NCBI GenBank assembly: GCA_000004985.1
Contig: GG738932.1
Origin: Naegleria gruberi
Lineage: Eukaryota
DNA length: 64,000 nucleotides
Reading direction: 5' to 3' (one strand)
The notes below the pieces were generated by a model. The model was not told the DNA's origin. It worked only from the letters and a program-made list of their open reading frames with translations, and did not search any database. The position numbers were made by a program, and so were the translations under genes. Numbering within the stretch: the stretch's first letter is position 1; each line of letters starts with the position of its first letter. This document shows, piece after piece, positions 10,744 through 30,999 of this stretch.

Positions 10744-10816
10744 TGCTGACGGACGGGATCGAACCGGCGACCAATGGCTTATTAGACCAACGCTCTACCG
10801 ACTGAGCTACGCCAGC
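10744..10816 (-). tRNA. tRNA-Ile (anticodon AAT), 73 nt
   Basis: Reverse complement is GCTGGCGTAGCTCAGTCGGTAGAGCGTTGGTCTAATAAGCCATTGGTCGCCGGTTCGATCCCGTCCGTCAGCA. It folds as a cloverleaf with anticodon loop CTAATAA and T-loop TTCGATC, and resembles eukaryotic tRNA-Ile(AAT). Positions 27:43 (T.T) and 50:64 (C.T) are mismatched by my hand fold. A TTTT terminator lies 6 nt downstream. Confidence 0.6.
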
Positions 10817-11032: not shown

Positions 11033-13192
11033 ATGCCTAACCTTGAGACTCTGAAGGAGACAGCAAGATCGGAGCTTTGCGATATTCTTGATTCGGTTTG
11101 TTATCATCACATTTATTATAATAACACAAGCAATCGAACAATATTTGTTTATCAATCATCTCATCTTCAATTAAATAATATATTATTATTAATTAATTCA
11201 TCAACATTAACAACAAAATAATAGATAAACGGAGACAAGATTCTTGTCCTTGATGAACAATTAATTGGACCTCTTGGATTAGTTGCCCCTCTGGCACTTT
11301 TAAAAGAACTTGGAGTTAAAAAACTATTTAAATTGAATGATAGAACATTTGATACCAATTTTGCAAATATTGTCTATATTGTGAGACCAAAGATGCACTT
11401 GATGAAGTGGGTTGCTAATCAAGTATCCTACTGGGTCAAACAAAAAGAAGATTTAGATCGAATGATGTCGGAAAAGCTGAAGGAAAAGAAGAACACAAAA
11501 AACAAAAAGCAACAACCTGAAGAAACCAATGAAGAAACATATACACCACCAACCAATTTCCACCTCTATTTATTACCTAAAACATCATTAATTTGTGTTG
11601 ATATCTTGAAGGATTTGGGTGTTTATCCACATTTAAGAATTTCCGAATATCCTTTGGATTTAATTGTCTTTGATAATTATTTAATGTCTTTGGAACTTCC
11701 TTCATCATTCAAGGAATGCGAATTGGATGGTGATTTTTCATCACTGTATTATGTAGCACGATCTATTATGAAGTTACAATCCTATTTTGGTTTGATACCA
11801 AATGTTAAATTTATTGGATCGGGTGCAACACATGTCTCTGAAATGATCATGAGAATGAGAAAGGAAGTTGGTTCACAAGCTTTTGCTTCTGTTCCAGAAA
11901 TTAACACATTAATTTTGATTGATAGAAATGTAGATTTAATTACTCCAATGTTAAATCAATTTACTTATGAAGGAATGATTGATGAACTTTTGGGAGGTAT
12001 TACAAATACCTTGTTTACAACTCAACGTGTACCTGAAGCTGCTACTATTGCTAAAAAGATTGCCCTCAATTCTTCTGATAATGTTTTTAATCGTTTGAGA
12101 CATCTCAATCACAATAGAGCTGGTATTGCAATCAATGAAATGGCTATTGAATTTAAATCCAGAGAAGATAAGGCAAGAGAAATCAAAACATCAGATTCTA
12201 AAGTTTCCATTGAAAAGATCAAGGAAGTTACTAAAATGTTACCACAAATTCAAGAAGACAAAAAGTATTTGGAACTTCGTAAGTTTTAAATTTCATGCAA
12301 TTCGTTACTAACACACATCCAAGACACCAAAATGATGCTTGAAATTAGATCAATTATTGGAAAGGTTCCTTTCAGAAGATTAATTCAAACACAGAAGAAT
12401 GTTCTTGATGGTGAGGATGAAAAGGAAATTATCGAATATATTGAAGAAACAATTGACAAGCAATTACCACTTACCAACGTTCTGCGTGTCATTTGTCTCT
12501 ATTCACTAATTAATGGAGGTATTAAGAATAAGGTTTTTGAAAAATTGAGAAGAGAAATTATACAAAGTTATGGACTTCAAGCATTGCCAACTCTCAACAA
12601 TTTGGAAAAGATTGGCATGCTCAGAAAGCAAGACTCCAAGTCTGTCAGTAATTGGAATTTACTGAAAAAGACATTTAATCTTGTAGATGAAGCTGCAATG
12701 GAAAGAACCAACGAGGAAGATGGTCAATATGATCCTCACTTGGTTTACAATGTCTATTGTCCAATAACTGTTGCTCTTGTCGAACATGCCATGACTGAAG
12801 AAAAGGGATGGAGAAGAGTTGAACCTGTTTTGAGTAAGCTTGCTCCAGGCCTTTATGGAGAATTATCTCAAACAGGTTCCCAAGATACTCAACTCGGAAA
12901 GAAGGTTGTCTTGGTTTACTTTATTGGAGGTGTTACTTTTGCTGAAATCAGTGCCATTACCTACTTGAATGAAAGAAGTAACGATTGTGAATACATTATA
13001 GCAACAACCAAGCTCACTAATGGATCCACATTTTTGGAAAATCTTGTTGAGGAAATTCCTGAAGATAGACAATCATTCAAAAAGAAAGCAAGCAGCGATT
13101 CCTATGCCCTTTTCTACGAAGAGCCACCAAAGGAAGGTGCTGATGCTTCATCATCTTCTGGAACAGCCAAAAACGGTCAACAAGATGTGTAA
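11033..13192 (+). CDS. vps33: Vps33 (Sec1/Munc18-family HOPS/CORVET subunit), 3 exons, ~662 aa
   Basis: Exons 11033..11095, 11225..12278 and 12324..13192 are joined in frame. Intron 1 is gtttgt...aatag. Intron 2 is gtaagttttaaatttcatgcaattcgTTACTAACacacatccaag. The product (MPNLETLKETARSELCDILDS|INGDKILVLDEQLIGPLGLVAPLALLKELGV...) aligns along its length to human VPS33A: IDRNVDLITPMLNQFTYEGMIDE vs [23 protein letters not shown], and VVLVYFIGGVTFAEISAITYL...IATTKLTNGSTFLENL vs LIFFLGGVTFAEIAALRFL...IATTKLMNGTSWIEAL. The TTG start at 11333 in the ORF track is an artefact. Confidence 0.8.
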
Positions 13193-13638: not shown

Positions 13639-16600
13639 ATGAAACAACAGCTACACGTTAATGGCCGCTTGCTGATTATTTCAGTTGTGCTGGCATTATT
13701 TCTAGTAATGACAGGTTGTGTTGCAGATATTGTGCAAGTGACACCTCAGAATCCACTGCTTGATATGATTAGTTGGAATGATAAGGATGAAATATGGTTT
13801 GCCCAATCGTGTCCTCTCACTGGATCCAACAGTCGGTAAGTTTCGAATATATTTTCTTTCCTGACTAATGGAAATAGTCTTGGAATTGAAATGAGAAATG
13901 GCATCCTTGCTGCATTCCATGAAATCAACTCTATTGGGGGTGTTTGGGGCTCAAAGAAACTCAAATTGCTCTCACTCGATGATAATTATGATCCAGTGAG
14001 CACTTTACAAAATACAAATTACTTTCTTTACAATATTACTCCACCAAATACTTCACTGAATTATGCAAATGTGTTTTCAAGTGGTAAATATGAAGATAGA
14101 AATGTCAATGATGTGAAAGTTTTTGGATTGTTAGGATATGTCGGCACGCCAACTGTCCAAGCAGTTTATTCTGATGTTGTGGCAAAGAATGTACCACTTG
14201 TAGCTTCTTTTACAGGAGTTGGTTGGTTGAGATATTCTCCATTCTATTCAAATGTCATTAATCTTAGAGCTTCCTATGATGATGAGACAGCTGCCATGAT
14301 TGACTATCTCATTAACGAAAAACTAATTAGAAGAATCTCTGTATTCTACCAAAATGACAGTTTTGGACTTGCTGGATTGAGCGGAGTCCAACGTTCCCTA
14401 GTCAACTATCTCAATATCCCTATTCGTTCCACATCTTACTATACAAGAGGAACACTAAATGTGGAAAATGCATTTCAGGAAATTGGAGCGGGAAAACCAG
14501 CTGCAATTATTTGCATTGGAACTTTTGCTCCCATTGCCAAGTTTATCAAGATGGTAAAAGATTTGGCCTTCAATTCAACTGCCAATCAATACGGTTATGA
14601 GAAACCGAGCGAAATTATTTTCATGACTTTGAGTTTCGTCAGCTCAGGAGCTCTCATTGAAAGATTAAACTCCTTCAGTTTACCTTCGAATAACTATGGC
14701 AATTCGTATTACATTGACAATGTAGTCATCACACAAGTCGTCCCCAGCCCTTTCAATCTCTCAATTCCAATAGTGAGATCCTATCAGAATGCAAGAAGAT
14801 CCTATCTACTAGCCAACGATCCATCCTCTTACAATTCCTTCACTCCCTCCTTTATAGAATTGGAAGGATACATGGCGGGAAGATTGGTTTTTTCGATATT
14901 TCAGAAAATGGTTGGAAATTTAACGAGATCCAACTTTATTGCAACGAATTATTTTGGAGGGAATAGGTTGGGAACTGATATTGGGGATTCGTCATCGACT
15001 GGTGACAGTTCAGGAGGTGTTTCACTTGTGGATGGGATTAGGGTAGGTCCGTATCGTTGGTGTGAAAGTGTCAATGTCATGGATTTGAATTTACCATATG
15101 CGGATAAGATTTCATTGAATGTTTCGGCACTTTCGAATACTACTTGTTCTAATTTTAATTGTAATCAAGGTTTGAAAGTTGTTTACAAAAGTTCAGCTCA
15201 AATTGAAAACTCTAAAATTTCATTTTCTATTTTAGGGAATAGTTTTTCATGGTATGATTACAAGGGAGGTATTTATTGCATTTCAGATCCTTCACTTGTT
15301 AAGAAACCTCTCATTTTCGGTCAATCAATCTATTCGAATAAGGACTATACTGAAGAACTAATGCTGAGAAAAGGAATTTTAATGGCCTTTACCATATATA
15401 ACCAAGGATTGTCAAGTTCTGATTCCAAATTAGAACTTTTAACACAATATCACTCAAATAAGGATGAATTAATTTCGAATACAAAGGAATTCATTGAAAC
15501 TCATGATGCACTTGCTCTGGTTGGCTATTCGACAGATCACTTTTCGTTGGTAGAAAGTAGTGGAAAGATCAATATTGCAACTAATCCACAATTTGCAAAC
15601 ATTTCCTTGATTGGAGGTGCTTCAACTATTAATTCAATGAAATTAAGAAATCCATTCACAAGGAATATCATTCACGCACATTCGTCCATTTTCGAACAAT
15701 TGGCAACGATTGTGGAATATTCAATGAATCAAGAAGCATCTTCAAGGTTTTCAATTATTTACAGTAAGAGAAATGAAGATTCATTTGCAGCTTTTGGATT
15801 ACTCAATCAAATATTGACTGCTTTGGGTTTAGTTTTAGATTCTTCTGCATGTATTGATGGTTCGAATAGTTATTCATATGCCAGTATAGATTCAATTGTT
15901 GATAGTTTGAGATATAATGGTTCTAATCCTCAAGTTGTTATATTTGCATTCCCATCAAATGTCGATGTAGTTTCGTCCTTGATTGGAGCTTTCCAAACTA
16001 CTTATCAGAATTCACCAAAATTTGGTCGAAACTTGGATATTGTTTTGATGAATTCCTTCTTTTCCCTTAATGCAGAATACGAAATGAAAGATTGGCTCGC
16101 TCAAAATTACAAGAGTTTCTTCAAAGTTTCGTTTGTTTCTCATTTAGATTCGGTTTATTCATCCTCACAACTTTCCATCGTCAAATTCATTCAAACCATG
16201 AAGAATTTCTTCCCAAACGATTATTCCAACTCAACTACCCTCTATCACAACAAAGTTTTGGAAGGATTTTATATTGGAAACTTGATTACCTCTATTCTAA
16301 TCAATATTGATTCAGGTTTGACTTCAAAGGAAGTATTGCAAACTATTTATGATGTCAAGAGTTTCATTTCTCAGCAAACGACATATGGTCCCTTCAGTGA
16401 AGATGGTTGCAATGTTGGTATTCGTCAAAATTATGTTTTCACATTCGTTTCGAATAGTTTCTCCAAAGTTTATACGAAAAGTTATGATTCAGGTTGTGGA
16501 TTATTGGCAAGCTCTGTTGAGACAGCCATCAAATCATACATTAACACGCCATTACTATTTGGATATCTAGCTCCCTATAGAAAAATTGGAAATTCTCAAA

Positions 16601-19332
16601 TTGAAAGACAATTAGACTTGTTGAGCCAGGTTTCAGATTTGGACACTTCTGGTCATACTCAATTTTCTAAGGGTCTATCCACCTATTTTAAAAAAATTAC
16701 TCAGAAATTCAATAATGGATATTCCTCTAAAAATATTCAACTTGTTATTGAATATTATAGTACTGATGAGGAGAAATTCAATCTTCCAAATAAGGTAAAT
16801 TCCTTGATTGACAAAAATAGAGTTTTTGCAATTATTGGATCAGAATTTATTTTTACTTCATCTGATATCAGTAGAGAATTTGATTCTATCAGATCCACCC
16901 TCGAAACAAAACAAATTCCTTGGATTAACAGCTATTCAGGTTCCATGGAATTGAGAAAACCGTACACTCCTTATTTTGTCAATGTTGGACCATCTGTCGT
17001 TGATCAAGCCATTTCATTCTTTAATTATTTCAAACAGAATGGAACTGTCAACTTGGCTCTTGTTTATGAAAATGATCCATTTTATACTAATATGGCAATT
17101 AGTGAAATTGTTGAATATTGTAGAATTGAATCCATTCCAATAAGTTTCACTCAGGGAGTTTATAATACATCGATAGCTGATCAAATTATTTCATTGTTTT
17201 CGAATGCAAGAATTGAGAAGGATGTGGCAATTATGGTTTTGGCAAGAGATTCGAATAGTGCTTCGATTATTAAGCATTCAATTCTTGCTGCTCAGAAATT
17301 GAACATTGATAAGAAACTCTATTTTGGTATTTTGATTGAAAATAGTGGAAGGATATTCGAACAATCTCTTGTTTCCACTTCTGACCTTTCATATTGGATT
17401 AGTTCAATTTCAGGTTCTTCCCTTTCAACTTTGTCCCAATCTGTTTTAAATGGAGTGAAAGAAGGTAAGCTAGTAATGGCTAGCTCAATGGATTCTCCAT
17501 TCCATGACTTTTCTGGTTCAGATAGCGCCTCTTTCGTCCAATTATTCAAAACCGAAACTATTTCATACTTTGATTCCAATATTAATCATTTAACATTTGA
17601 AGGTTACTCGCTTGGCCACTTTATCGATATTCTCATCACCTCCATTGAACAAGCAAAGAGTATTTCAGGTCAAACCTCAAACATTACCCCTTCAGATTTA
17701 TTGAACTCCATTTATAGTAATACCGTCTTTGATTTGAACATGAAAAAAGTTGGCCCAGTTGGATATGCCTGCTCCAATACCACAACAGCAAGTACAACTT
17801 GTGATTCTTCCACTTCCTTGGGCTGTTCCTGTAATGAAGGAGCTAAAAAAGTTGTCTTATCAACTCTAACAAGTCAACCAACTGTGAATTCTTCCGCTCT
17901 CTTCAAATATTCCAATACTATCTCAACCAATACCTTTGGAACATGTGGTTTGGTTGCTGTTGTTCCTTCTCTGTCTGTTGTTGCCATTGTCATGATTGTC
18001 CTTTCAGGTATTGCCTTCCTCCTTCTCATAACAATCATTCCAATACTTTCGTATAGATATTATGTAGCAAGAAATGCCATCAAACACGCTCCTAAATCAA
18101 AGAATGGTAAATTAGCTTGTTGCTTTACCGATATCCAAAACTCGACTGTCTTGTGGCAATCCAATGAGAAAGCCATGAGAGAAGCTTTGATCATTCACAA
18201 CCAAATTATGAGAAAGAATCTCGATCTATGTAATGGATTTGAAGTCAAGACACAGGGTGATTCATTCTTTGTGGTTTTCAAGAATCCAACTGATGCCTTA
18301 GATTGGTGTGTCTCTGTCCAACATGATTTGTTGACAGCCAAGTGGCCATCTGATTTATTGGGATTGTGGGATTGTAGACCGGAGTGGGATAATGCAACTA
18401 AGGAAATAATTTGGTCAGGAGTGAGAGTTAGAATGGGACTTCATTATGGAGCTGCGGAATATGTCTTTGATAAGGTTGTGAAAAGACCGGACTATTTCGG
18501 AACTTGTGTAAATACCTCCGCAAGAGTTGAGAGTGTGGCTATTGGTGGACAAATATTGGTTTCTGAGGATTTCTTATTGGAAACATGGAAAACAAACAAG
18601 TGCCGATTGTATTCCTTTATCAAATTCCTTCAGGGAAATAACAACTCGTACGTGAGTGAAATCATGACTGGATTGACCTTACAGGAGGAACAGAATGATA
18701 AGGACATTGTCTCAGTTGGAGGATCCAGTCATAAGAGTTCTGAATTATCGAGAAATTCCATCTCATCCAGGAATTCCTCAGTTAGCTCAGCACAAGCTTA
18801 CGATCTTTCAGATCCAAATCAAGTTACAAAGAGGAAGCGAACAAGACATGCACGTGGTTGGAGATATTTAGCTGAAGACATGGGAGAATTCACATTGAAA
18901 GGTTTGGAAGGAACAACAAGACTTTTCCAAATCAAGTCAACCATCATGGCCAAGAGAAATTATCCAGCATTGAAGAGTGTGACTGTAGCTTCATCATCTA
19001 AACCATTGTTGCTATCTCAACAAAGTGCTGCAGTTTTTGGTTTGAATGGTCAATCATCTAGCAATAGCGTGACTCAGGATAGTAAGGCATTTAGAACACT
19101 CATGACAAGAACGAATACTCAATCTTTTAGAACAGTTCCAGATCAACAGATTTATCAGAGTTATCAGGAAGATGGTATGGAGAAGGGACCACAATCAATT
19201 CCACCACAGTCTACTGTTGCAAATCCAGAAATTCCAATGGATTCAGATTTTGAAGTGTCCAGATTTAAAAAGAATAGAATTGTACCAGTAATTACAACAA
19301 CAAGTGAGAATGAGACAAATGAGGAGGAATAA
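13639..19332 (+). CDS. Receptor-type class III nucleotidyl cyclase: signal peptide, two PBP1/ANF-receptor-like ligand-binding domains, one TM helix, cyclase homology domain, Ser-rich tail (~1,880 aa, 2 exons)
   Basis: Exon 1 (13639..13835) encodes the signal peptide MKQQLHVNGRLLIISVVLALFLVMTGCVA.... A 42-nt intron gtaagt...ctgactaatggaaatag spans 13836..13877. Exon 2 (13878..19332) follows in frame. Ectodomain motifs LGIEMRNGILAAFHEINSIGGVWGSKKLKLLSLDDNYDP and a second LRKGILMAFTIYN... unit are typical of Leu/Ile/Val-binding (PBP1/ANF receptor) folds. The TM helix is LVAVVPSLSVVAIVMIVLSGIAFLLLITIIPIL. The cyclase domain immediately follows the TM and carries CCFTDIQNSTVLW, KTQGDSF, VRMGLHYGAAE, YFGTCVNTSARVES and GGQILVSE. 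There is no kinase-homology domain. Confidence 0.8.
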
Positions 19333-19377
19333 AGGTTATGAAAATTAAAAAAGAAATACCATGATTTAAAAGGAAAC

Positions 19378-19449
19378 GGGGACCAGTGGGAATCGAACCC
19401 ACGGCCTCTCGCACCCAAAGCGAGAATCATACCACTAGACCATGGTCCC
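19378..19449 (-). tRNA. tRNA-Pro (anticodon TGG), 72 nt
   Basis: Reverse complement is GGGACCATGGTCTAGTGGTATGATTCTCGCTTTGGGTGCGAGAGGCCGTGGGTTCGATTCCCACTGGTCCCC. It is near-identical in its core to canonical eukaryotic tRNA-Pro(UGG), with anticodon loop TTTGGGT. A T-rich terminator (tttccttttaaa) lies immediately downstream. Confidence 0.8.
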
Positions 19450-19829
19450 TTACATATCATATACAAAATATAATGTTTTTAGATGGTTCATATATGTTAC
19501 GTATGCTGAAGAAAGAGAGGCAGTGCTCTGGGCTGCGAGTTTGCTGGTACAACCAGTAGATGTTATTGTGGATTAATAGTCATGTTACTGGTTAGAAGCC
19601 AATTTCTGTCTTGTAAAAGACTGCTCCAAAACATCAATAAAAGAATAATAATCCGATGTTTACATCTACTATCATTATTTGATCATCACCAACCTTCTAC
19701 TCACACATCAACTTCTCATGAAGGAAGGGAAAAGGAAATTAATCATTCTTGGATTGTCTTATTTTTTTTAAAATAGAAAATAATTTTATTAAAAATTATT
19801 TATTAATCCAACGGTAACTAACAACTAAA

Positions 19830-22800
19830 TTAGAAGGCAGCAGAAACCAATACAATAATCACCATCAAGAGCATATTCATTCCAATAGAACAAGCACCAG
19901 AAACAATAGAACTTCTTGGAATGACAGTATTATTACTTGCTGAAGGTGAAATTGGAGTAGTTGAAGTGCCTGGTTCTGGAACAGTATCTTGTCCTGATCT
20001 TACTTCATTGGTTACATCAAAGAATAGAGAGGCCATCTTCAATGGATCAACATCTGGATTAGCAGAAACACCACAAGATGAAACAGAATCCCAGGTCTTA
20101 ATTTCACTTGAAGTGATATATCTGGATGTCTCTTCAGTGCCTTGATCTCCAACGAAACGAATATTATCGAGGATCATTTCTCTGTATTGTCCATTGTTGT
20201 TTAAGGAGAAGGCAAATCTACTGAATGGTTGAACTCCTTGGAATCCCAAATCAGTGAGAGGATATCTAACTCTGGTAACACGAGTGTCATCAATCTTGTA
20301 GTGTTGAATGTAGGTTGCATTGGTTGTAATACCTCTACCAATGGTAATGAAAGCCTTGGATGTAGTATTGTACCAAGCAAAGGCCAAGTTCAAATCAATG
20401 GATCCAGAGCTATTGGTTCCCTTAATGAAGAATTCAAAGTATTTGAAAATACTGGTATCCACATTGACAACTGAACCTCTGTAAAGTTGGAAACCTCCCT
20501 TCTTGAGTCCAAAGTAATAAGAAGAATTACCACAAATTGGATTGAATGGATAGGTAATGTTGGCAACGTAGTAATCAGGACTAGCTCCAGCATATGGACC
20601 ATTGGTGAATCCAGTTGACTTGAAAGTAGCTCCTTCATCATACAATGTAATAACTTCAGAAGCATTCTTGACAGTACATGGAGAAGTGATTGGAACTGCT
20701 GGTGGCAAATTACATTTACCACTACAGTACAATTGAGCTCTCAAGTGACCTGTTGGATTTTCAATACTGGAAACCTTTACGAAAATTCTTCCCTTCAACA
20801 AGTCAACCCATTCTCCATAAGACAATTGCAAACCAAATCTACTTTGAGAATATGGAGATGGAACATAGTTATAGTGATCATTCTTTCAACAGAACCAGGA
20901 GCACCGACACCAACTTCAACCAAAGTAGCCCTATTATTCATATTGTGATGGAGAACAATATCCAATAATCTGTCATTATAATTGAGGAAGGCAAAAACTG
21001 AACCAACAGCTTGGGAAGAACCAGAAGCCAATGGAGAAACAGCAGCTTGTTGACACATTTCCAAACGACCTACAAATCTATCTTCCTTCATGTAAACTCT
21101 ATAAGTTTCTCTTGGATTTGATGGAAGACTTTGGGTGGCTCCACAATAATCATTTGGACAAGTGGCTGTAACATTGATTGCAGCTGAACTACCATAATTA
21201 CCATAATCAACAAAGCCATACCATTCCTTCTTACCACTCTTGGAGTTGGTATTCTTCAACTTGATATAAAAGTGACCAGTTGTGGCATTGAAATAATAAC
21301 ATTGTGTTGGGAAGTTAATGACATCTTCCAGAGAGTCACATAAATTGAGAGTTTTTGGATCGTTACTACTTGTTACACTGAATGTAGTACCAAGTGGATA
21401 TTGAGCAACAAAAACAGCCCAATCACCAGCACCAGATGATTGCATATTCAAATTCATTGGATTTGGAGGTGGAAGATCCCAGTTAAACTTGATAGAATAG
21501 AAACCACGAGCTGGAATGTTTGCCTGCATGGCAAAGTCGCCTCCACTGGATTGGACACCTGACACTGTACCTTGAATACCTCTCAAGAGATCAGTGAGTA
21601 TTAATCTCGGAACTCTCTTTGAATTATCCTTAAAATCAGGATGTGAAACACCATTTGGATCGATAATTACTGAAGAAGAAATGTTATAATTAGTTACTCT
21701 TAATTGGAAGTATGATTCTCCCATCAATGGACAAACTGAAGCATTATTCCAGTCATATCTTGTGATACAACCTTCAAAGTTTTGAATTGGGTCAGTACCA
21801 CTAATCCAAGCACCAGCTTCTACACCAGTGATTGAACCATCGATATCCATGAGAGCAGCACCCTTGTGATTTTCATAAGTGACAGTATCCAAGAATACTC
21901 TTTGGGGCGAGTTTTCAAACTTTAAATCACAATATCTATTTCTAGTATGGAGTCTGAAGAAGTTATCAAGGACTGACAAACAACCAGCTCTCTTATACTT
22001 GTCAGTGACAAAGTTTCTGAAAGTGACATTTCTCAATAATTCAGCACCACCATTATCATAAGTTTCATAACCCTTAATAACAGTAGTGGTTGAGTAGTAA
22101 GCATTTGGTCTTGTTCTATTACCAATATCAACAGATGGTCTCAAAGTATAATCACCAACATTCTCAGATTCAGCAATCATGATAGAATCAGTAATGTATG
22201 AAGTACCAGGTGGAGAGTTCATTTGTCTCATATTATCAGTCAAGTACAAGTTTTTGAAAACAATATTACCACAACGAGCCCAAATACCATAACCTCTCAT
22301 TTTGTAAGCAGTAAAGTTATCAATTAGTGCTTCAATAGCTGGATAATAACCTGCCAATTCAGTTGTACCATCAGATTTTTCCATATCGTCAATGAATAGA
22401 CCATTTTGACCACTGTGAGCTACATTTCCTGAAAATGGCTTTGGAGGAGCAGTTCTAGGATTGATAGAACCTGGAGCATACAGGGAGGCACTTGCACCTG
22501 TTGGGAATGTTGGCATTCTAAAGTAAAATTTAAACATTAACTATGAACAAATTGTAATAACTTACGTAAACCAAAAAGAATGCTTTCCACCCATTGCATG
22601 GTTATCAACGAATGTATTGTTTGGATTAGTAATCCAAAAAACAGCAACATCACTGTCAGATGGAATTAAACGATATGCCAAATCATAAACTGGCTTTGGA
22701 CGAATTCCCAAATTATGTTTGAAAACATTTCCGACTTCAGAACCATCTTCCAAAAAGTAACAGTGACCATTGGCATTGAAGCAGACATTATCTTGAAGCA

Positions 22801-23857
22801 AGAAATAATTGGTATCGTGAACAACGTAACATCTTTGGAAAGAGTCATGAACTGAACATCCCTTGATATAATATTGAGTACCCAAAGCAGTACCTTGAGC
22901 AGTATTTTCCAAAAGGTGAAGATGGAATGAGTATCTTCCCATCAAACCATATTGACCAAACTTTCTAATTTCAATACCTTCAACTTGGAATTGAGTAACC
23001 AAACGAACCATGAAATGACCACCGAATTGAGAAGCATCAGATGAATTGTCACCTTGGAAGACAATTCTTCTAGACAATAAACCAACTTCTGGCTTGATCT
23101 TGTTACCATCGCTGTAGTGAGTGTAATTGAGTGGAGCATCCAAGACAATAGTCTTTCCGCCATCTAAAACTTGAGTAATAATACGCTCTTCATTTTGATC
23201 TGGGAATTTAACACCTCTAGCCCAACCAATTAATGAAGAAGTTACTTTGGTATAGTCAAGTAATTCACCATAATCTGAGGTAGCAATAACAATAGAATCA
23301 CCAACTCTCCAAGAAACACTTTCGCTCAACTTGATTTGATTAGAACCCTTGACAGCAGTAACAGCCAGATCAGTAAATGTTGGATAATCAACTTGACCAA
23401 AGATTTGTACCTTTGATCCAGAGAGGAAACCAATACCCTTTGAGCCCATGTTAACGTTATCAAATGGATCTGTTCCAATATCATTCTCAGTAGTACGAGC
23501 GCCATAGAATGTCAACACAATTTTGCTAGTAATTGGACATGTGGCACTTCCCATGATCCAGCTAGCGCCTGATTCCACTCTAATAAAATCAACATTCAAA
23601 GTCAAGTTGGTATTATCGAAAATTAGAGAACCACCATTCAAAACGGTTATGGAACGAAGCTTGTTTGGTGGAGATTTGTCAACCTTGACAGCTGTGCTAA
23701 TAGTAATTTGACTATCAGCAACAGAGAATCCAGTAACACTGGAAAACAATGTTAAACCTTGTGCATCTTGTGGACAATTGGTTTGACAATTTACCAAACC
23801 AACTACCAACAGGATAAAGAATACTAAACCTGTCAGTACTCGCTGCTTGTTGGACAT
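19830..23857 (-). CDS. Large secreted G8-domain plus right-handed beta-helix protein (CEMIP/TMEM2/fibrocystin-like) with Ser/Thr-rich stalk and GPI-anchor-like hydrophobic C-terminus; ~1,340 aa
   Basis: Three track ORFs belong to one gene. Exon 1 is 23857..22566 (signal peptide MSNKQRVLTGLVFFILLVVGLVNC, then a G8-like Gly-spaced block LNGGSLIF...VESGASWIMGSATCPITSKIVLTFYG, then GRYSFHLHL as in G8/PbH1 proteins). An intron at 22565..22518 (gtaagttattac...ttttactttag) splices in frame onto exon 2 starting at 22517 (...HSFWFT|MPTFPTGAS...). A +1 frame change falls somewhere in 20795..20890 before the last ~340 codons, which end SIVSGACSIGMNMLLMVIIVLVSAAF* (GPI-signal-like). Confidence 0.7.
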
Positions 23858-25950: not shown

Positions 25951-27087
25951 TCATTTAAAAGTGTAAGAATCAGCTCTGGAAATCTCAGAAACAGTATAGC
26001 TAGTACGATCAAAGTATGGATCCATCACTGAGAAGGTCTTGCTTACCGGATCGTAACCTGTGGCCAAAACGAAATGCTCTGATTTCTTTCCAGGTGGTTT
26101 TATCAGTTTCAGAATGACCAACTTTCCTTCACATAAATTTCTTGTGGCCACCACAAGAATATCAGTTGTTCTTCCATAATATTTAACTCCAAACTTGGAA
26201 GTAATTGCTGCCCAAACGTACAAGTTCTTGTTTTGGAAACCACCATTGGTCTTCAACCATTCATTGAATTCATAGGGATTCATTTTGGTTTTTCCAATTC
26301 CATTCAATCCTGAAATAATGGATGTGATCAAACAACCTGCCTTACAAATAGTTTCACTAGAGGTTCCCAATTTGAAAGATCCCCAAGTAGAATCACATTG
26401 TTTCAATAACGGGAATTGAGATGGAATATATCCTGGTGAGCAAATATTTGGTGGAATAATTGGTGATGGTTCTGGAATAGGAGTTGGTTTTGGAGGAGGT
26501 GGAATAGGAATAATTGGAGATGGCTCTGGTTTCGGTGGAATAGGAGATGGATCAGGTGAGGGTGGAATAGGAGAGGGTTGTGGCAAAGGTGGAATAGGTG
26601 ATGGTTTTGGTTTTGGCACAATAATGACCTCACGTCTTCTTCTTCTTCCTCTTGGTATCTCCAATTCCAAATTAATATTCACACTTCCACCAGGATTGTT
26701 AGTTGTAGCAGAGGAAGATGCTGAGGAAGCAGCTCTACTTGCCTGTTGAAGAACAATAGTTTGTGGAGTTTGAGGAATTGGCACTGGAACATTCACAACT
26801 AGTTCTCTACCTGGGAAGTAACATTTACGTGAAGTTTTCTTCTTCTTTTTCCCAATAACCTTGATGATAATTTCCTTATCGTTCTTTGTTTTTTTCTTGA
26901 TAGTTTGTTTTCTTCTTCTTCTTGATGAACTTTTAAATGACCTGGCAGAGGTCAATGTAATGATCTGAACATTACTGTCTGATCTTTTTGATGATTTCGC
27001 AGCAGTAATAGCAACTACACCAAACAAACAAACCAACAAGATTCCAATAAGAAAGTTAGTTGGTTTCAGAGCAGCTGATTTGTACAT
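25951..27087 (-). CDS. Type-II-anchored or secreted protein: N-terminal TM/signal anchor, basic region, (P-S/E-P-I-P-P)n proline-rich stalk, C-terminal papain-fold Cys/His domain resembling bacterial Peptidase_C39-like (C39_2) domains
   Basis: The N-terminus is MYKSAALKPTNFLIGILLVCLFGVVAITAA. The stalk PKPKPSPIPPLPQPSPIPPSPDPSPIPPKPEPSPIIPIPPPPKPTPIPEPSPIIPP is encoded by tandem ggtggaataggagatgg-type DNA repeats at 26440..26640. The C-terminal domain has Q...C(K)AGC...TSII followed by EHFVLATGYDPVSKTFSVMDPYF, which matches the His-block H-x-V-V-x-G-Y-D...DP of C39-like peptidases. Confidence 0.55.
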   Translation of the reverse strand: MYKSAALKPTNFLIGILLVCLFGVVAITAAKSSKRSDSNVQIITLTSARSFKSSSRRRRKQTIKKKTKNDKEIIIKVIGKKKKKTSRKCYFPGRELVVNVPVPIPQTPQTIVLQQASRAASSASSSATTNNPGGSVNINLELEIPRGRRRRREVIIVPKPKPSPIPPLPQPSPIPPSPDPSPIPPKPEPSPIIPIPPPPKPTPIPEPSPIIPPNICSPGYIPSQFPLLKQCDSTWGSFKLGTSSETICKAGCLITSIISGLNGIGKTKMNPYEFNEWLKTNGGFQNKNLYVWAAITSKFGVKYYGRTTDILVVATRNLCEGKLVILKLIKPPGKKSEHFVLATGYDPVSKTFSVMDPYFDRTSYTVSEISRADSYTFK

Positions 27088-27201
27088 TTTTTTGAAGGAT
27101 AACGTGACACGGTAGGGTAAATTGATCCAAAAAAGTAAGCTTTGTCCAATCGTAAATACGCATGGTCATGGCACAAGCAATCAGGATTACCAAGGATCCA
27201 A

Positions 27202-29715
27202 TTATTTCTCATTTGTTTCCTGTTTCAATAAAGGAACAGATTTCTGTTCAAAATATAAACTTCTGTGCACTTGTACAAGATACTGAGATGGAATGGAAGT
27301 ATCAATTATTAAAGATTCTCCACTCCTATGGATAATCAATTCTTCTCCAAAGTTCTTTTTACACTTGATAGTGAACTTGTTGATAGCTCTTGATTTGGTA
27401 CTCAATCCTCTCTTACAAATCTTTTTGAGTTTTTCAATCTTCTGTAAATAGCCAGGGGACCCTTCCACATTATCGAATAAATCAAAAGCTGTTTTACCTT
27501 GACTATTTCTAACAATGTCGAATTTCAAACCCCTTTTAATGAGTGCACTGCAAGTTAGAAAATCATCATGAATAAAGGTTTGTGCCCAATGCATGTAAGC
27601 TCTGACAATAAAGTGAGATATATCATCTCCATCTACACAGCCAAAACAATTAACATTTCGTAACTGTTGGAGTGGAGATCTTTCTAATGAAAAGTGACAA
27701 CGATTTCCGTCATAGTGGAAGAAGAGTGAGACTAATTGAGGTTGACCCTCCACATAATCAAATGCAAGAGAATTGCACTCCTGAATACTGTAATTATATA
27801 ATCTATCAATTATTTGAAACATTATTCTATACATTCCACAATCGTCCGAATATCCAACAAAATTAAATTTAGGAAAATCTTCTATTGAAGTCAATTTGTC
27901 TAATAGACTGTAGTATCCTAGTGAGGTGGTTTGTATTGGCATATTTCCATTTCTATCTTTGCATAAAACAATTTCCCTTAAACTAATGTTTAAACTAGAA
28001 AGGAAACAATTTCCAAAATAATGCACCAAATGTTTCCCATTCATATCTCTATAATTGATATCATTGAACTCTTGGTAATCATAATGTTCTGGCATTCGAT
28101 TAATAGTTGCAAATAGAATTCGCATATCTATCAGTAATCCATCTAACAAGATTACTTTTGAATAAACTTCTCCACATACTTTCTTAAACGCTTCATAATT
28201 AAAAACTTTTGAGAAATTTCCTATTATCATTTTAGTGTAACGGCTGAACGCAACCTCTTTAGGTGTAATTCCATAATTATTTGGCTCCTCACTAAGGCGA
28301 TCTATTTCAGTATCTGATAATTTTGCCAGAAATGATATTTTCTTGTAAGTGGTCGCAGTTGAAAATAAATAATAACAATGTAAAATATTATTTCCAAAGT
28401 TATCTTTGGAACTGGGATCAAAATTGTTCGTAACATGATATCTCATCATACATGGATTAATTCCAAACACGTCTCTACTATTTGGGTCCAGTTTTATCTT
28501 GCTAAATTGAAAACAATCCGAAACTAAACTAGCTGCTGATAATTGGTACTTTCCCAAATGTGACAGATCTATATTATATTCACTGCAGAAAGATATTATT
28601 TCCTCCTTATCAATAGTATTATTTAGAAATTCCTTGGTAATGTTTCTTTCAACCTTAATCTTCACAAATGGATATTTTAGAATAATATTCAAACATTGAA
28701 TAGAGTAAATAGGAATTTTGAAAATTCTGAATGTTGGATATTTCGCATGTATCTGTTGCAATAAATTCATGACCTGCTCCAAGTTTTCCTCTTTTTCTAA
28801 ATAATTCCAATTTGTAAATTCGATCTGCAAAATAAATGTAAAATATTCAATGTCAAGTTTGAAATTTTCAATTAGATAATTTGCATCTTCAAATTGCAAA
28901 CAAATAATACAGTAAAACACAAGGTTTTCTACTTTTTGAAAAGTTTTTGGGATAATATTGGCAAATTCTGTAGTTGGTATGATTTCATACTCCTGTGTGA
29001 ACCTATAGCTACGATAGCAATTACCACTCCTGTACAATCTAGGTTGTAAAACTCCATAAACAGGTAGAGTATAAACAGATACATCACTACTTTCAGGCTT
29101 AAAATCTGAATTGAAATTCAAAAAGTAATGCTTCACACTCGGCATTAATTTCATAAAATCTACTCCAAAATTTCTTACACTCGAGACATTGAAATAATTC
29201 TTTCCCATTACTGAATGAAACGAAACATATTCCACCTGACGAAGAGGTTGCTTTCCATGACAAATCTTTTTCAATTTCCACATGAATTTGGAAAACACTT
29301 GCATCCACGATTCCCTCTCATATTGTCGCAACAAATCTACAATTTTAACACATGGATGCCTCTTGAGATGTTGCACATAAACCTCATCAAGAAAATAGTT
29401 ACGTTTAATCTTGGGCGTATCAAAGATTGTAATATTCAAACTTTTCGGAAGGAAAGTCTTGATGGATTTTAAAATTGATTTACAAACTAGAAAGAGACCA
29501 ATACTTTCATGGCAAGGAGGTTTCTCCTCAAAAGCAATGAAATCATCAGAGCATAAGATTTGATCAAATTCTTCAAGAGTTTCGGGAAAGTTGATTTTTG
29601 GTACAAAGAGAAGTGGATGAGCACAAATATCACGAATGTAATCGAGGTAGGAGAAAATTTCATGATGAATTTCGGAGGGAAGATTTGAGAGTGAGGGTTT
29701 GCCTTCTTCATGCAT
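27202..29715 (-). CDS. Large F-box-like protein (837 aa), otherwise unknown
   Basis: The N-terminus LSNLPSEIHHEIFSYLDYIRDI fits the F-box consensus LPxEIlxxIfsyLd. The rest has no motif I recognise and has low-moderate complexity. Confidence 0.5.
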   Translation of the reverse strand: MHEEGKPSLSNLPSEIHHEIFSYLDYIRDICAHPLLFVPKINFPETLEEFDQILCSDDFIAFEEKPPCHESIGLFLVCKSILKSIKTFLPKSLNITIFDTPKIKRNYFLDEVYVQHLKRHPCVKIVDLLRQYERESWMQVFSKFMWKLKKICHGKQPLRQVEYVSFHSVMGKNYFNVSSVRNFGVDFMKLMPSVKHYFLNFNSDFKPESSDVSVYTLPVYGVLQPRLYRSGNCYRSYRFTQEYEIIPTTEFANIIPKTFQKVENLVFYCIICLQFEDANYLIENFKLDIEYFTFILQIEFTNWNYLEKEENLEQVMNLLQQIHAKYPTFRIFKIPIYSIQCLNIILKYPFVKIKVERNITKEFLNNTIDKEEIISFCSEYNIDLSHLGKYQLSAASLVSDCFQFSKIKLDPNSRDVFGINPCMMRYHVTNNFDPSSKDNFGNNILHCYYLFSTATTYKKISFLAKLSDTEIDRLSEEPNNYGITPKEVAFSRYTKMIIGNFSKVFNYEAFKKVCGEVYSKVILLDGLLIDMRILFATINRMPEHYDYQEFNDINYRDMNGKHLVHYFGNCFLSSLNISLREIVLCKDRNGNMPIQTTSLGYYSLLDKLTSIEDFPKFNFVGYSDDCGMYRIMFQIIDRLYNYSIQECNSLAFDYVEGQPQLVSLFFHYDGNRCHFSLERSPLQQLRNVNCFGCVDGDDISHFIVRAYMHWAQTFIHDDFLTCSALIKRGLKFDIVRNSQGKTAFDLFDNVEGSPGYLQKIEKLKKICKRGLSTKSRAINKFTIKCKKNFGEELIIHRSGESLIIDTSIPSQYLVQVHRSLYFEQKSVPLLKQETNEK

Positions 29716-29771
29716 TTTTTTTTAAATATTTAATTATTTAAATATATTATTTAATTGTTTACAATGTCTTG

Positions 29772-30797
29772 TTATGGAAGAGTAGATTCAAATTTAAAGA
29801 CAAGATCAGAATATGGCGAATTTGGAGAAAGTAAATGTTCAATATTGTGAACTTTCTTACTCCAATTGACAAAGATGTGAATCATGTGATTTCCAAAATC
29901 AGCAACAAAGAGTTCTCCCAACCCATATGAGATTGCCAATCCTACAGGTCTCATGAATGCTAAATCATCATTTTTCACTTTGAAACTCTTAACAAATGCC
30001 TTTTTGTGATCGAATAATTGAATTCGATTATTCATTGTATCTGAAACAAGGATCATGTTGGTTTTCTTATCATAGGCAATTCCTTTCGGTGATTCAAAAC
30101 AACCATTTTCTTTCCCCTGTTTCCCAATTGAGTATAAGAAAGTGCCATCCTTCTTGAAAGCTTGAATTCGATGATTTCCAGAATCACAGACAATAATATT
30201 TTCCTCCAAATCCAAAGTTAAATCATGAGGGAATAATAATTGACCTTCTTTTCTTCCCCTCTCAGAAATTACTGACAATACTTCTCCACTCCTCTTACTC
30301 AAAACCTTAATTGAATTCGTTTTTTTACAAGTCACATAAATTTGGTCGCTTGAACATGAAACTCCATTAGCTCCAGGTATTTCAGTAGTCCAATTAATCT
30401 TTCCATTCTCCATATTAATACATTGTACAATTCCTCGATCAGTACTCAACACAAATTTATCATCAAAATAATCAAAATAACTTGGAAGACCATCCACCAA
30501 CATTCTCTTCAAAACTTGTCGTGTATCTAAATCCAAAATATAGATAAATCCCTCACTCACATCTGTAAAATACAATCGTCTCTCCTTTTCATTCACTCTC
30601 ACTTGATACGGTTCAAATAACATTAAATAATTAATATTTTCATCGGAGGATTTTACAACATTTGATCCACCAGAATCCAACTGTAATCGAGCAAGTTTGG
30701 ACTCACTCAACATTCGATCGGAGGGATAGATGGCTTCAATAGCCTTCGCTGACGTTAATTCTACACTCACGGGAGCACACAATGCACGTGGTAGCAT
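29772..30797 (-). CDS. NHL-repeat (six-bladed beta-propeller) protein, 341 aa
   Basis: Repeated NHL signatures: LLFPHDLTLDLEENIIVCDSGNHRIQAFKKDG, FESPKGIAYDKKTNMILVSDTMNNRIQLFD and PVGLAISYGLGELFVADFGNHMIHIF. Confidence 0.75.
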   Translation of the reverse strand: MLPRALCAPVSVELTSAKAIEAIYPSDRMLSESKLARLQLDSGGSNVVKSSDENINYLMLFEPYQVRVNEKERRLYFTDVSEGFIYILDLDTRQVLKRMLVDGLPSYFDYFDDKFVLSTDRGIVQCINMENGKINWTTEIPGANGVSCSSDQIYVTCKKTNSIKVLSKRSGEVLSVISERGRKEGQLLFPHDLTLDLEENIIVCDSGNHRIQAFKKDGTFLYSIGKQGKENGCFESPKGIAYDKKTNMILVSDTMNNRIQLFDHKKAFVKSFKVKNDDLAFMRPVGLAISYGLGELFVADFGNHMIHIFVNWSKKVHNIEHLLSPNSPYSDLVFKFESTLP

Positions 30798-30999
30798 TTT
30801 TTAATTTGTGCTTTATCAATTCTGGCATTTACAATTGTTTACAAGATTCCCTGTTGAATATTGATATAACTTTACAGTTTACCTGGTTTTTTCCGGTTTA
30901 CACTTGAATTTGGTCGAGACACTTTAACTTTTATATAAGATGGATACCATAAGATAGAACCTTAGATAGTCGTTGTGTATTTTATGATACATATGTATT

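What the first reader, a model, noticed from the sequence alone, without database searches (positions are those of the whole stretch)
19830..23857. ~1,340-aa G8 plus beta-helix surface protein split into three ORFs by one real intron and one frame change (sequencing error or incipient pseudogene)
The 431-, 580- and 333-aa ORFs are one gene. The first junction is a canonical 48-nt intron (gtaagt...tttag at 22565..22518) that restores the frame exactly. The second, somewhere in 20795..20890, has no plausible intron: the only GT...AG pairs are under 30 nt apart. The reading frame shifts by +1 there, and the downstream frame continues with protein-like sequence to a GPI-signal-like terminus. In a draft assembly with large N gaps an indel error is likely, but a true frameshift is possible. 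The architecture (G8 domain, then a PbH1 beta-helix with a GRYSFHLHL block) is that of CEMIP/TMEM2-type glycan hydrolases or binding proteins.
Basis: seen in the sequence. Interest (0 to 1): 0.5.

Follow-up and report, generated by a model that had tools for sequence, protein, structure and literature searches.

The report
Naegleria G8 beta-helix gene, one-base gap
The three reading frames are one already-annotated Naegleria gruberi gene for a secreted CEMIP/TMEM2-like sugar-polymer-binding surface protein, split by one ordinary 48-base intron and by one missing base in the reference sequence, so the finding is correct but ordinary.

Summary
The window is the Naegleria gruberi NEG-M reference, because the neighbouring ORF is an exact match to NAEGRDRAFT_75988. 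The three minus-strand ORFs are one gene that is already public: NAEGRDRAFT_75989 / XP_002669101.1 / D2W3L9, a "G8 domain-containing protein".

- **Junction 1** is a real 48-nt GTAAGT...TTTAG intron at 22565..22518.
- **Junction 2** is a single missing C next to 20874. A 2,801-nt metagenome contig that is 99.5% identical reads ATCACCTATAAC where the window reads ATCACTATAAC, and it has an unbroken ORF.
- **With that base restored**, the protein is 1,326 aa and aligns without gaps to 20 homologues.
- **The public model** bridges the break with a 23-nt GT..AG "intron" (20864..20842). This removes the conserved PSPYSQS motif, and I judge it an annotation artefact.

Architecture, N- to C-terminus:
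- signal peptide
- G8 domain
- CEMIP-type beta-helix
- domain X
- degenerate CHRD domain, which the frameshift hits
- CBM-like jelly roll
- Ser/Thr/Pro linker
- GPI-signal-like tail

It lacks the two lectin-like (GG) domains of CEMIP/TMEM2.

These tools cannot tell whether the missing base is a consensus error (my estimate about 60%) or a genuine recent NEG-M lesion (about 35%). Interest is low. The useful result is a corrected gene model.

The parts
22566..23857 (-). Coding exon 1 (1,292 nt; aa 1-430 plus the first two bases of codon 431). It encodes the signal peptide (aa 1-24), the G8 domain (aa 50-165 = 23710..23363) and the start of the CEMIP beta-helix (from aa 277 = 23029), including the GRYSFHLHL block.
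   Evidence: ORF. Pfam G8 at 72.7 bits and CEMIP_beta-hel. The N-terminal hydrophobic region has mean Kyte-Doolittle hydropathy (KD) of 2.96. Identical to the public model P0105.
22518..22565 (-). Spliceosomal intron, 48 nt, GTAAGT...TTTAG. It sits after the second base of codon 431 and contains an in-frame TAA.
   Evidence: Sequence. Splicing makes the Pfam beta-helix match continuous, positions 1-211 of 212. The join is gap-free against 20 homologues and against TMEM2 8C6I. The public model uses the same junction. A probable 45-nt GTAAGT intron in the neighbouring Sec1 gene shows this size is normal here.
20875..22517 (-). Coding exon 2, the part upstream of the lesion (aa 431-978 plus the first base of codon 979). 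It holds the rest of the beta-helix (to aa 470 by Pfam, further by structure), domain X (weak Pfam match aa 775-860 = 21487..21230) and the first half of the CHRD-like domain (from aa 924 = 21040).
   Evidence: AlphaFold2 model of P0001 with Foldseek top hit TMEM2 8c6i_A, E 1.3e-22.
20874..20875 (-). Site of the frame break. The window reads ATCAC-TATAAC where the 99.5%-identical contig L001 reads ATCACCTATAAC, so one C is missing beside 20874 (a G on the plus strand). Restoring it gives codon 979 ACC (Thr) and the sequence ...SVERMITYNYVPSPYSQSRFGLQL...
   Evidence: Pairwise alignment of window 22572..19773 with L001 shows 12 substitutions and this single indel. The restored protein aligns gap-free with homologues.
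20795..20797 (-). Premature stop (TGA) reached in the upstream frame 26 codons after the missing base. If the lesion is real, the product is truncated here.
20842..20864 (-). The 23-nt GT..AG stretch (GTTCCATCTCCATATTCTCAAAG) that the public gene model removes as an 'intron' to bridge the frameshift. I judge it to be coding sequence, not an intron.
   Evidence: P0105 reads ...MITITIRFGLQL..., 8 aa shorter than the restored protein. It has an 8-residue gap over the conserved (S)PYSQS motif in the alignment. In L001 these 23 nt lie inside an uninterrupted ORF, and removing them there would break the frame.
19833..20874 (-). Coding exon 2, the part downstream of the lesion (aa 979-1326). It holds the second half of the CHRD-like domain (to aa 1027 = 20730), a CBM-like beta-jelly-roll (aa 1029-1247 = 20726..20070), a Ser/Thr/Pro-rich linker and an 18-residue hydrophobic C-terminus (19886..19833).
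   Evidence: The frame is open for 351 codons. It is 34-46% identical to the Naegleria and Willaertia homologues in this segment (29% to the most distant paralogue, P0012). The AlphaFold2 model has pLDDT 88.6 with Foldseek hits to CBM8, CBM11, CBM30 and CBM4 at probability 1.00. Hydropathy.
19830..19832 (-). Stop codon of the gene.

Best explanation
This is one protein-coding gene of Naegleria gruberi, the annotated NAEGRDRAFT_75989. It has two coding exons separated by a 48-nt spliceosomal intron.

The intact gene encodes a 1,326-aa secretory protein, in this order:
- signal peptide
- G8 domain that continues into a CEMIP/TMEM2-type right-handed beta-helix
- domain X beta-sandwich
- degenerate CHRD domain
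- CBM-like jelly roll
- Ser/Thr/Pro linker
- C-terminal hydrophobic peptide of the kind that is exchanged for a GPI anchor

From the domain set I infer a cell-surface protein that binds an extracellular polysaccharide and probably cleaves it. [quoted passage not shown] The substrate is unknown.

The second break between ORFs is not an intron. The reference sequence lacks one C beside 20874, inside the CHRD domain. I think this is most likely an error in the draft consensus (about 60%) rather than a real mutation of strain NEG-M. The 23-nt 'intron' in the public model is a repair made by the gene predictor.

Shown here: the gene structure, the position of the missing base, the domain content and the artefactual nature of the 23-nt intron. 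Inferred: error rather than mutation, the GPI anchoring and the enzymatic role.
For: - Identity of the locus: the neighbouring ORF is an exact match to NAEGRDRAFT_75988, and P0105 = NAEGRDRAFT_75989 shares a 90% cluster with P0001.
- Intron: canonical splice sites, an in-frame stop and exact restoration of the frame. The Pfam beta-helix match becomes complete and continuous, 165.6 to 197.1 bits. The join is gap-free with paralogues.
- Missing base: L001 (2,801 nt) differs from the window by 12 substitutions and one indel, the C at 20874/20875. L001 encodes an uninterrupted 895-aa ORF.
- Spacing: the restored protein has the same 14-residue spacing between the G-x-G-x-x-G motif and YSQSRF as P0002 and P0005.
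- Selection: 8 of the 12 substitutions are synonymous, including both that lie downstream of the break when read in the downstream frame.
- Downstream frame: open for 351 codons, P about 1e-10. It folds confidently as a CBM-like domain.
- Alternatives: there is no slippery heptamer for ribosomal frameshifting. The real or probable introns seen here are 45-48 nt in this window and 72-109 nt in a N. lovaniensis paralogue, never 23 nt.
- Family: G8 and CEMIP_beta-hel score above threshold. TMEM2 8C6I is the only sequence match to a solved structure and the top fold match. The shared motifs GRYxxHxH, QRCxxxH, GHxYFLEDGxExxN and FWIxNPxN are all present.
- Secretory features.
- For consensus error rather than mutation: the assembly is a draft, with a 50-N gap and a 17.6-kb N run in the same window, and nothing else in the gene is damaged.
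Against: - No reads or transcripts of strain NEG-M could be examined, so error and real lesion cannot be separated.
- The site is a CC dinucleotide, not a long homopolymer, so it is not a classic indel-error context.
- L001 comes from a different lineage or allele (0.43% divergent). It shows what the intact gene looks like, not what NEG-M carries.
- At least four other family members occur in N. gruberi (P0003, P0005, P0011 and this gene), so loss of one copy could be tolerated.
- Naegleria is described as a mainly heterozygous diploid (PMC9928731), so the reference may have captured a null allele.
- On function: the purified human TMEM2 ectodomain showed no hyaluronidase activity and its active site could not be assigned (PMC10206443). 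Catalysis by this fold is therefore itself unproven.
- CHRD (13.7 bits) and CEMIP_X (17.7 bits) fall below Pfam's thresholds in this protein.
Confidence: 0.6

Rival explanations
1. The missing C is real in strain NEG-M, either homozygous or as one allele of a heterozygous pair. The gene is then a very recent pseudogene or null allele. It would yield a roughly 1,004-aa secreted protein that keeps G8, the beta-helix and domain X but loses half of CHRD, the CBM-like module and the membrane anchor.
For: - The frameshift is in the public reference itself, since the annotators had to bridge it.
- The site is not a homopolymer run.
- Paralogues give redundancy.
- Naegleria is reported as a mainly heterozygous diploid (PMC9928731).
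- From my own recollection, not checked here: NEG-M is a long-cultured axenic laboratory strain, in which a surface glycan-handling protein could be dispensable.
Against: - Apart from the one base, the downstream 351 codons carry no stop. The only two substitutions there relative to L001 are synonymous. Any inactivation would therefore be extremely recent.
- The assembly is a draft with gaps.
- The frameshifted ORF products were not found as gene calls in any other assembly in the 15-billion-protein collection. Since no other N. gruberi assembly appears to be present there, this is weak evidence.
Confidence: 0.35
2. The public gene model is right. A 23-nt GT..AG spliceosomal intron (20864..20842) is removed, and the true protein is 1,318 aa.
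For: GT and AG ends are present and removal restores the frame.
Against: - Removal deletes 8 residues including the (S)PYSQS motif, which is conserved in the Naegleria and Willaertia homologues and weaker in more distant ones. It leaves a gap in the alignment that no other homologue has.
- In the 99.5%-identical contig the same 23 nt lie inside an intact ORF, and removing them there would destroy the frame.
- The stretch has none of the GTAAGT 5' site seen in every real or probable intron examined.
- 23 nt is half the length of the shortest intron seen here.
- The N. lovaniensis paralogue has no intron in this region.
Confidence: 0.03
3. There are two separate genes. A G8/beta-helix gene ends at the 20795 stop, and an independent gene for the CBM-like protein starts downstream.
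For: An in-frame stop exists at 20797..20795.
Against: - The break falls inside a single CHRD-like domain, aa 924-1027.
- All 20 homologues are colinear single proteins across it.
- The downstream frame has no ATG near its start and no signal peptide.
- The two frames overlap, leaving no intergenic space.
Confidence: 0.01
4. Programmed -1 ribosomal frameshifting joins the two frames during translation.
For: The downstream frame is -1 relative to the upstream one, and the two overlap by about 90 nt.
Against: - There is no X XXY YYZ slippery heptamer in the overlap zone.
- The near-identical contig and all homologues encode the protein in a single frame.
Confidence: 0.01

Closest known systems
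Public gene model NAEGRDRAFT_75989 (EFC36357.1 / XP_002669101.1 / UniProt D2W3L9), Naegleria gruberi 'G8 domain-containing protein', 1,318 aa
   Same: Same locus, same start, same 48-nt intron and same stop. Identical in sequence except around the frameshift.
   Different: The model removes 23 nt (20864..20842) as an intron and reads ...MITITIRFGLQL.... The restored sequence reads ...MITYNYVPSPYSQSRFGLQL... and is 8 aa longer.
Human TMEM2/CEMIP2 ectodomain (PDB 8C6I) and CEMIP (KIAA1199/HYBID)
   Same: - A G8 domain that merges into a right-handed beta-helix, followed by domain X.
- Pfam PF10162 and PF24606 score above threshold.
- phmmer E 1.8e-42 over query 167-717.
- Foldseek E 1.3e-22.
- The conserved motifs GRYxxHxH, QRCxxxH, GHxYFLEDGxE and FWIxNPxN are shared.
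   Different: - No lectin-like (GG) domain 1. The sequence alignment skips about 177 residues of the TMEM2 chain between positions 152 and 329, against 13 residues here.
- No lectin-like domain 2, and no Pfam GG/ILEI match down to E = 1.
- It has instead a CHRD-like domain, a CBM-like jelly roll and a GPI-signal-like tail.
- TMEM2 is a type II membrane protein, and CEMIP has an N-terminal secretion signal (PMC9704909).
- The animal proteins are linked to hyaluronan, and I know of no report of hyaluronan in Naegleria's habitat or prey (my own knowledge, not tested).
Heterolobosean and amoebozoan paralogues/orthologues (N. lovaniensis C9374_003197 = P0002, N. gruberi NAEGRDRAFT_46431 = P0003, Willaertia magna ABK040_007917 = P0006, Balamuthia mandrillaris 'hyaluronoglucosaminidase' = P0019)
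   Same: Full-length colinearity at 32-51% identity. They share the order G8, beta-helix, X, CHRD, CBM-like domain, and many have hydrophobic C-termini.
   Different: This copy has only one intron, at a position the N. lovaniensis paralogue does not share; that paralogue has 6 introns elsewhere. This copy alone carries a frame break.
Bacterial G8 domain proteins (for example Meiothermus and Deinococcus misasensis, about 850-930 aa; P0039, P0051, P0068)
   Same: G8 plus CEMIP_beta-hel core, 30-35% identity over about half of the query.
   Different: These matches cover only about half of the query (48-53%), and their precomputed Pfam hits list only G8 and CEMIP_beta-hel. I did not examine their C-terminal regions.
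Beta-jelly-roll carbohydrate-binding modules (CBM8 of Dictyostelium discoideum 7T7Y; CBM11, CBM30, CBM4, CBM22)
   Same: The fold of residues 1029-1247. Foldseek probability is 1.00, and the target-normalised TM-score is 0.70 to 7T7Y.
   Different: Only 13-16% sequence identity to the best fold matches, and no Pfam CBM family matched. Ligand-binding residues were not compared, so this is fold resemblance, not family membership.

Membership tests
CEMIP/TMEM2-type G8 beta-helix proteins | G8 domain (Pfam PF10162) above the gathering score | tested here: met
   72.7 bits against a cut-off of 22.9, aa 50-165.
CEMIP/TMEM2-type G8 beta-helix proteins | CEMIP beta-helix (PF24606) at full length, with the conserved motifs GRYxxHxH, QRCxxxH, GHxYFLEDGxE and FWIxNPxN | tested here: met
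   197.1 bits against a cut-off of 27.3, model positions 1-211 of 212, aa 277-470 across the splice junction. The motifs align to TMEM2 8C6I and are nearly invariant in the family alignment.
CEMIP/TMEM2-type G8 beta-helix proteins | Domain X beta-sandwich after the helix (PF24605) | tested here: inconclusive
   17.7 bits, below the 27.6 cut-off, aa 775-860. Several paralogues carry a precomputed PF24605 hit. The Foldseek alignment to 8c6i_A spans 687 columns, but domain X was not searched alone.
CEMIP/TMEM2-type G8 beta-helix proteins | Two lectin-like GG domains, including the Arg187 (CEMIP) / Arg265 (TMEM2) position whose mutation lowers hyaluronan degradation | tested here: not met
   No GG/ILEI-type Pfam match down to E = 1. 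The alignment to 8C6I skips chain residues of about 152-329, where lectin-like domain 1 is inserted (domain layout from PMC10206443). The C-terminal half holds CHRD and a CBM-like fold instead.
CEMIP/TMEM2-type G8 beta-helix proteins | Hyaluronan depolymerising activity | not testable with these tools
   This needs biochemistry. The activity is disputed even for the purified TMEM2 ectodomain (PMC10206443).
CHRD domain (PF07452) | Pfam match above the gathering score | tested here: inconclusive
   13.7 bits against a cut-off of 24.1, aa 924-1027, model positions 10-117 of 117. The homologues P0004, P0015, P0018 and P0022 carry precomputed PF07452 hits, and these four align colinearly with this protein across the region. 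The domain is seen only once the frameshift is repaired.
Carbohydrate-binding module (beta-jelly-roll CBM) | CBM fold, plus a sequence-family match or a conserved ligand site | tested here: inconclusive
   The fold criterion is met: pLDDT 88.6, with top Foldseek hits to CBM8, CBM11, CBM30 and CBM4 at probability 1.00. There is no sequence-family match. The ligand site was not examined.
GPI-anchored surface protein | N-terminal signal peptide plus a C-terminal hydrophobic peptide preceded by small residues, with no cytoplasmic tail | tested here: inconclusive
   The only two hydrophobic segments are aa 4-29 and the last 18 residues (mean Kyte-Doolittle hydropathy 2.49). The latter is preceded by ...SSIVSGACS. 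No GPI predictor or experiment was available.
Spliceosomal intron (junction 1, 22565..22518) | GT..AG ends, interruption of the reading frame, exact restoration of a conserved protein on removal | tested here: met
   Transcript evidence was not available.
Spliceosomal intron (public model's 23-nt junction 2, 20864..20842) | Removal restores a conserved protein, and the sequence is non-coding in close relatives | tested here: not met
   Removal deletes conserved residues. The same 23 nt are in-frame coding sequence in the 99.5%-identical contig. There is no GTAAGT, and the length is far below the 45-109 nt of the real or probable introns seen.

The most novel reading that the evidence does not exclude
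The microbial members of this family may be true polysaccharide depolymerases. They would be G8/CEMIP beta-helix proteins with a CBM-like module and a surface anchor, expanded to several copies in bacterivorous amoebae such as Naegleria, Willaertia and Balamuthia, and their catalytic site would lie on the conserved beta-helix face.

If so, they would be a simple, lectin-domain-free system for settling whether the CEMIP/TMEM2 fold is catalytic in itself. That question is open after the negative result with the purified TMEM2 ectodomain. A smaller variant of this reading is that the frameshift is a genuine loss in the axenically grown NEG-M strain.
Probability: 0.3. Interest if true: 0.4.

Novelty: already known. 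Interest (0 to 1): 0.15.

Why it matters
The practical value is a corrected gene model. The RefSeq/UniProt entry for NAEGRDRAFT_75989 carries an invented 23-nt intron that removes eight conserved residues of a CHRD-like domain. The true product is 1,326 aa, provided the missing C is restored.

It is also a clear example of gene predictors hiding frameshifts in draft assemblies behind implausibly short introns.

Biologically, it documents an uncharacterised domain combination in heterolobosean and amoebozoan amoebae: G8/CEMIP beta-helix, domain X, CHRD, CBM-like module and a GPI-type tail. I found no paper that discusses it. Nothing here is surprising to a specialist, and nothing opens a long-standing question by itself.

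Tried and rejected
- Provisional repair by adding an A to the AAA run at 20886. It gave a readable protein, but the L001 alignment superseded it by placing the missing base 11 nt downstream.
- Enumeration of all GT/GC..AG pairs that would fix the frame. Those lying inside the zone where both frames are open are 8-26 nt long, and all would delete conserved residues, so they were rejected.
- Slippery-heptamer search for ribosomal frameshifting: none found.
- Pfam on the third ORF alone: no family. Its nature came only from structure prediction.
- Exact look-ups of the frameshifted ORF products and of the repaired 895-aa and 1,326-aa proteins in the 15-billion-protein collection: none present. 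There is therefore no independent assembly of the same strain.
- Pattern scan of JGI metagenome contigs for either allele (C or CC) around the site: no match.
- Literature search for the locus tag, the protein accessions and the metagenome project PRJEB11402 / ERR1078381, and for Naegleria plus 'G8 domain': nothing. The origin of the metagenome sample remains unknown.
- The N. gruberi genome paper (PMID 20211133) is not held, so sequencing depth, intron statistics and heterozygosity of NEG-M could not be quoted.
- Genomic locus of the N. gruberi paralogue P0003: not on record.
- Conservation of the intron position, tested in the N. lovaniensis paralogue: not conserved. Intron 1 therefore rests on protein continuity, not on a shared position.


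Full report
**What is in the sequence**

The minus strand between 23857 and 19830 carries three long ORFs:
- 23857..22562, 431 aa
- 22537..20795, 580 aa
- 20831..19830, 333 aa

The window is about 35% G+C. It ends in a 17.6-kb run of N and has a further 50-N gap.

Between ORF 1 and ORF 2 lies the 48-nt stretch 22565..22518, GTAAGTTATT...TTTTACTTTAG. Exon 1 ends in AC and exon 2 begins with A. An in-frame TAA follows the splice donor directly.

ORF 2 and ORF 3 overlap. The downstream frame opens after a TGA at 20888..20886, and the upstream frame closes at the TGA at 20797..20795. Any swap of frame must therefore occur within 20885..20797. The downstream frame is -1 (equivalently +2) relative to the upstream one, so the assembled sequence is one base short.

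**Which organism and which gene**

An exact-sequence look-up showed that the convergent neighbouring ORF (13891..19329, 1,813 aa) is NAEGRDRAFT_75988 of Naegleria gruberi. It also showed that the gene under study is already in the public databases as NAEGRDRAFT_75989 (EFC36357.1, XP_002669101.1, UniProt D2W3L9), a 1,318-aa "G8 domain-containing protein" (P0105).

At the second junction it reads ...GSVERMITITIRFGLQLSYGEW.... This corresponds to removing the 23-nt GT..AG stretch 20864..20842. The frameshift is therefore a property of the public reference assembly, and the annotators patched it with a miniature intron.

**Junction 1 is a real intron**

- With ORF 1 alone, the Pfam CEMIP_beta-hel model is matched only over positions 1-172 of 212, at 165.6 bits.
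- After splicing it is matched over 1-211 in one piece (aa 277-470), at 197.1 bits.
- The spliced sequence ...GGKHSFWFT|MPTFPTGASASLYAPGSINPR aligns without a gap to 20 homologues, several of which share FWFTMPTFPTG almost exactly, and to human TMEM2.
- A probable 45-nt GTAAGT...TACTAAC...AG intron interrupts the Sec1-family gene at 12279..12323 in the same window. Introns of this size and type are therefore normal here.
- The position is not shared by the closest N. lovaniensis homologue. That gene has six other introns of 72-109 nt, all starting GTAAGT.

**Junction 2 is a one-base gap, not an intron**

The homologue search returned P0001, an 895-aa protein from an ENA metagenome contig (ERZ929261, k127_434130; locus L001, 2,801 nt), 99% identical to the query. 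Aligned to window 22572..19773, L001 shows 12 substitutions and exactly one indel. L001 reads ATGATCACCTATAAC where the window reads ATGATCAC-TATAAC, so one C beside 20874 is missing.

L001 contains the same 48-nt intron and then one uninterrupted ORF to the same stop. With the C restored, the window encodes 1,326 aa. Its sequence ...VEVGVGAPGSVERMITYNYVPSPYSQSRFGLQLSYGEWVDLLKGRIFVKV... aligns gap-free with all homologues. The spacing to the conserved (S)PYSQSRF motif is the same as in P0002 and P0005. The public model instead has an eight-residue gap exactly over that motif.

Further points against any alternative to a simple missing base:
- In L001, removing the 23 nt would break the frame.
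- The 23-nt stretch lacks the GTAAGT donor of every real or probable intron examined.
- The overlap zone contains no slippery heptamer.
- The N. lovaniensis paralogue has no intron in this region.

**Is the downstream part still a working coding sequence?**

- It is open for 351 codons. The probability from base composition is about 1.3e-10, and the other two frames have 12 and 34 stops.
- It is 34-46% identical to the Naegleria and Willaertia homologues in this segment, and 29% to the most distant paralogue, P0012.
- Of the 12 substitutions against L001, eight are synonymous. These include both that lie downstream of the break when read in the downstream frame.

Apart from the one base, the gene therefore looks fully maintained. 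This fits either a consensus error or a very recent real mutation. Nothing available here can separate the two:
- No other assembly of the strain is in the protein collection.
- No JGI metagenome contig matches either allele.
- The genome paper is not held.

I put a consensus error at about 60% and a real NEG-M lesion or null allele at about 35%. For the error: the assembly is a gap-rich draft and the gene is otherwise intact. For a real lesion: the site is only a CC dinucleotide, paralogues provide redundancy, and Naegleria is described as a mainly heterozygous diploid (PMC9928731).

**What the protein is**

Pfam on the restored protein:

| Domain | Residues | Bits | Status |
|---|---|---|---|
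| G8 | 50-165 | 72.7 | above threshold |
| CEMIP_beta-hel | 277-470 | 197.1 | above threshold |
| CEMIP_X | 775-860 | 17.7 | below threshold |
| CHRD | 924-1027 | 13.7 | below threshold |

The CHRD match covers nearly the whole model and straddles the frameshift at codon 979.

Structural evidence:
- The only sequence match to a solved structure is the human TMEM2 ectodomain 8C6I, E 1.8e-42, query 167-717.
- An AlphaFold2 model of P0001 (pLDDT 81.8) has 8c6i_A as its top Foldseek hit, E 1.3e-22, followed by carbohydrate-binding modules.
- Modelling window 20726..20070 alone (aa 1029-1247, pLDDT 88.6) gives a beta-jelly-roll. Its best matches are CBM8 of Dictyostelium (7T7Y, target-normalised TM-score 0.70), CBM11, CBM30, CBM4 and CBM22.

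Secretory features:
- The only hydrophobic segments are the N-terminal signal peptide and the last 18 residues, which have nothing after them.
- That tail is preceded by a Ser/Thr/Pro-rich stretch.
- There are 18 N-x-S/T sequons.
- This is the pattern of a secreted, probably GPI-anchored, glycoprotein, but it was judged by inspection only.

**Comparison with what is known**

In the TMEM2 crystal structure (PMC10206443):
[quoted passage not shown] - Domain X follows, then a second lectin-like domain.
- The authors could not assign an active site.
- They found no hyaluronidase activity in the purified ectodomain.

The Naegleria protein shares the G8/beta-helix/domain X core and its conserved motifs. 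It lacks both lectin-like domains: the alignment skips the roughly 177 residues of TMEM2 where the first one sits, and no GG-type Pfam match appears. In their place it carries CHRD plus a CBM-like module and a lipid-anchor signal.

It is thus a member of the broad G8/CEMIP beta-helix family, but not of the CEMIP/TMEM2 subfamily as defined by the GG domains. Nothing supports calling it a hyaluronidase.

The same architecture recurs in several paralogues in N. gruberi and N. lovaniensis, and in Willaertia, Balamuthia, Physarum and Planoprotostelium. Shorter G8/beta-helix proteins occur in bacteria such as Meiothermus and Deinococcus.

My working inference is a surface protein that binds an extracellular polysaccharide and probably cleaves it. 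The CBM-like module would tether the polymer, and the concave face of the helix would act on it. The substrate is unknown.

**Verdict**

They are now sharpened to a single missing C at 20874 and a 1,326-aa product. The gene is already annotated and the family is already known. The new element is that the public gene model's 23-nt intron is an artefact. Interest is low.

Noticed in passing
window 19378..19449 (-): A tRNA-Pro(TGG) gene lies in the roughly 500-nt gap between the stop of this gene and the stop of the convergent cyclase gene. The 100-aa ORF listed at 19164..19466 is just its translation.
   Followed up: partly
window 13891..19332 (+): An intronless 1,813-aa ORF that is an exact match to NAEGRDRAFT_75988. 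It is a receptor-type nucleotide cyclase with two periplasmic-binding-protein/ANF-receptor-like ligand domains and a Guanylate_cyc catalytic domain.
   Followed up: partly
window 11333..13192 (+), intron about 12279..12323: A Sec1-family gene split into two ORFs by a probable 45-nt intron, GTAAGT...TACTAAC...AG. Pfam positions 38-323 and 330-574 lie on either side.
   Followed up: partly
window 30999..31084 (+) and 10744..10816 (-): A tRNA-Tyr(GTA) of 86 nt, long enough to contain a tRNA intron, and a tRNA-Ile(AAT).
   Followed up: no
window 25951..30797 (-): Three consecutive same-strand ORFs: 378 aa with a Peptidase_C39-like domain, 837 aa with no Pfam match, and 341 aa with NHL repeats. Whether they are one split gene or several was not resolved, and the gaps between them do not show obvious GTAAGT introns.
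   Followed up: partly
window 45128..45177 and 46343..64000: A 50-N scaffold gap, and a 17,658-base run of N that fills the rest of the window. Only about 46 kb of the window is real sequence.
   Followed up: no
P0002-P0005 and P0012 (N. lovaniensis and N. gruberi paralogue models): These five public models all end at ...DPDPLGIR(K/N)L, without the linker and hydrophobic tail that this gene and other paralogues (P0006, P0007, P0008, P0011) have. They could be genuinely secreted forms, or gene models truncated at an unrecognised last intron.
   Followed up: no
L001 (ENA ERZ929261, run ERR1078381, project PRJEB11402): A metagenome contains a Naegleria gruberi-like organism only 0.43% divergent from NEG-M at this locus. 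The nature of the sample could not be found in the literature held.
   Followed up: partly
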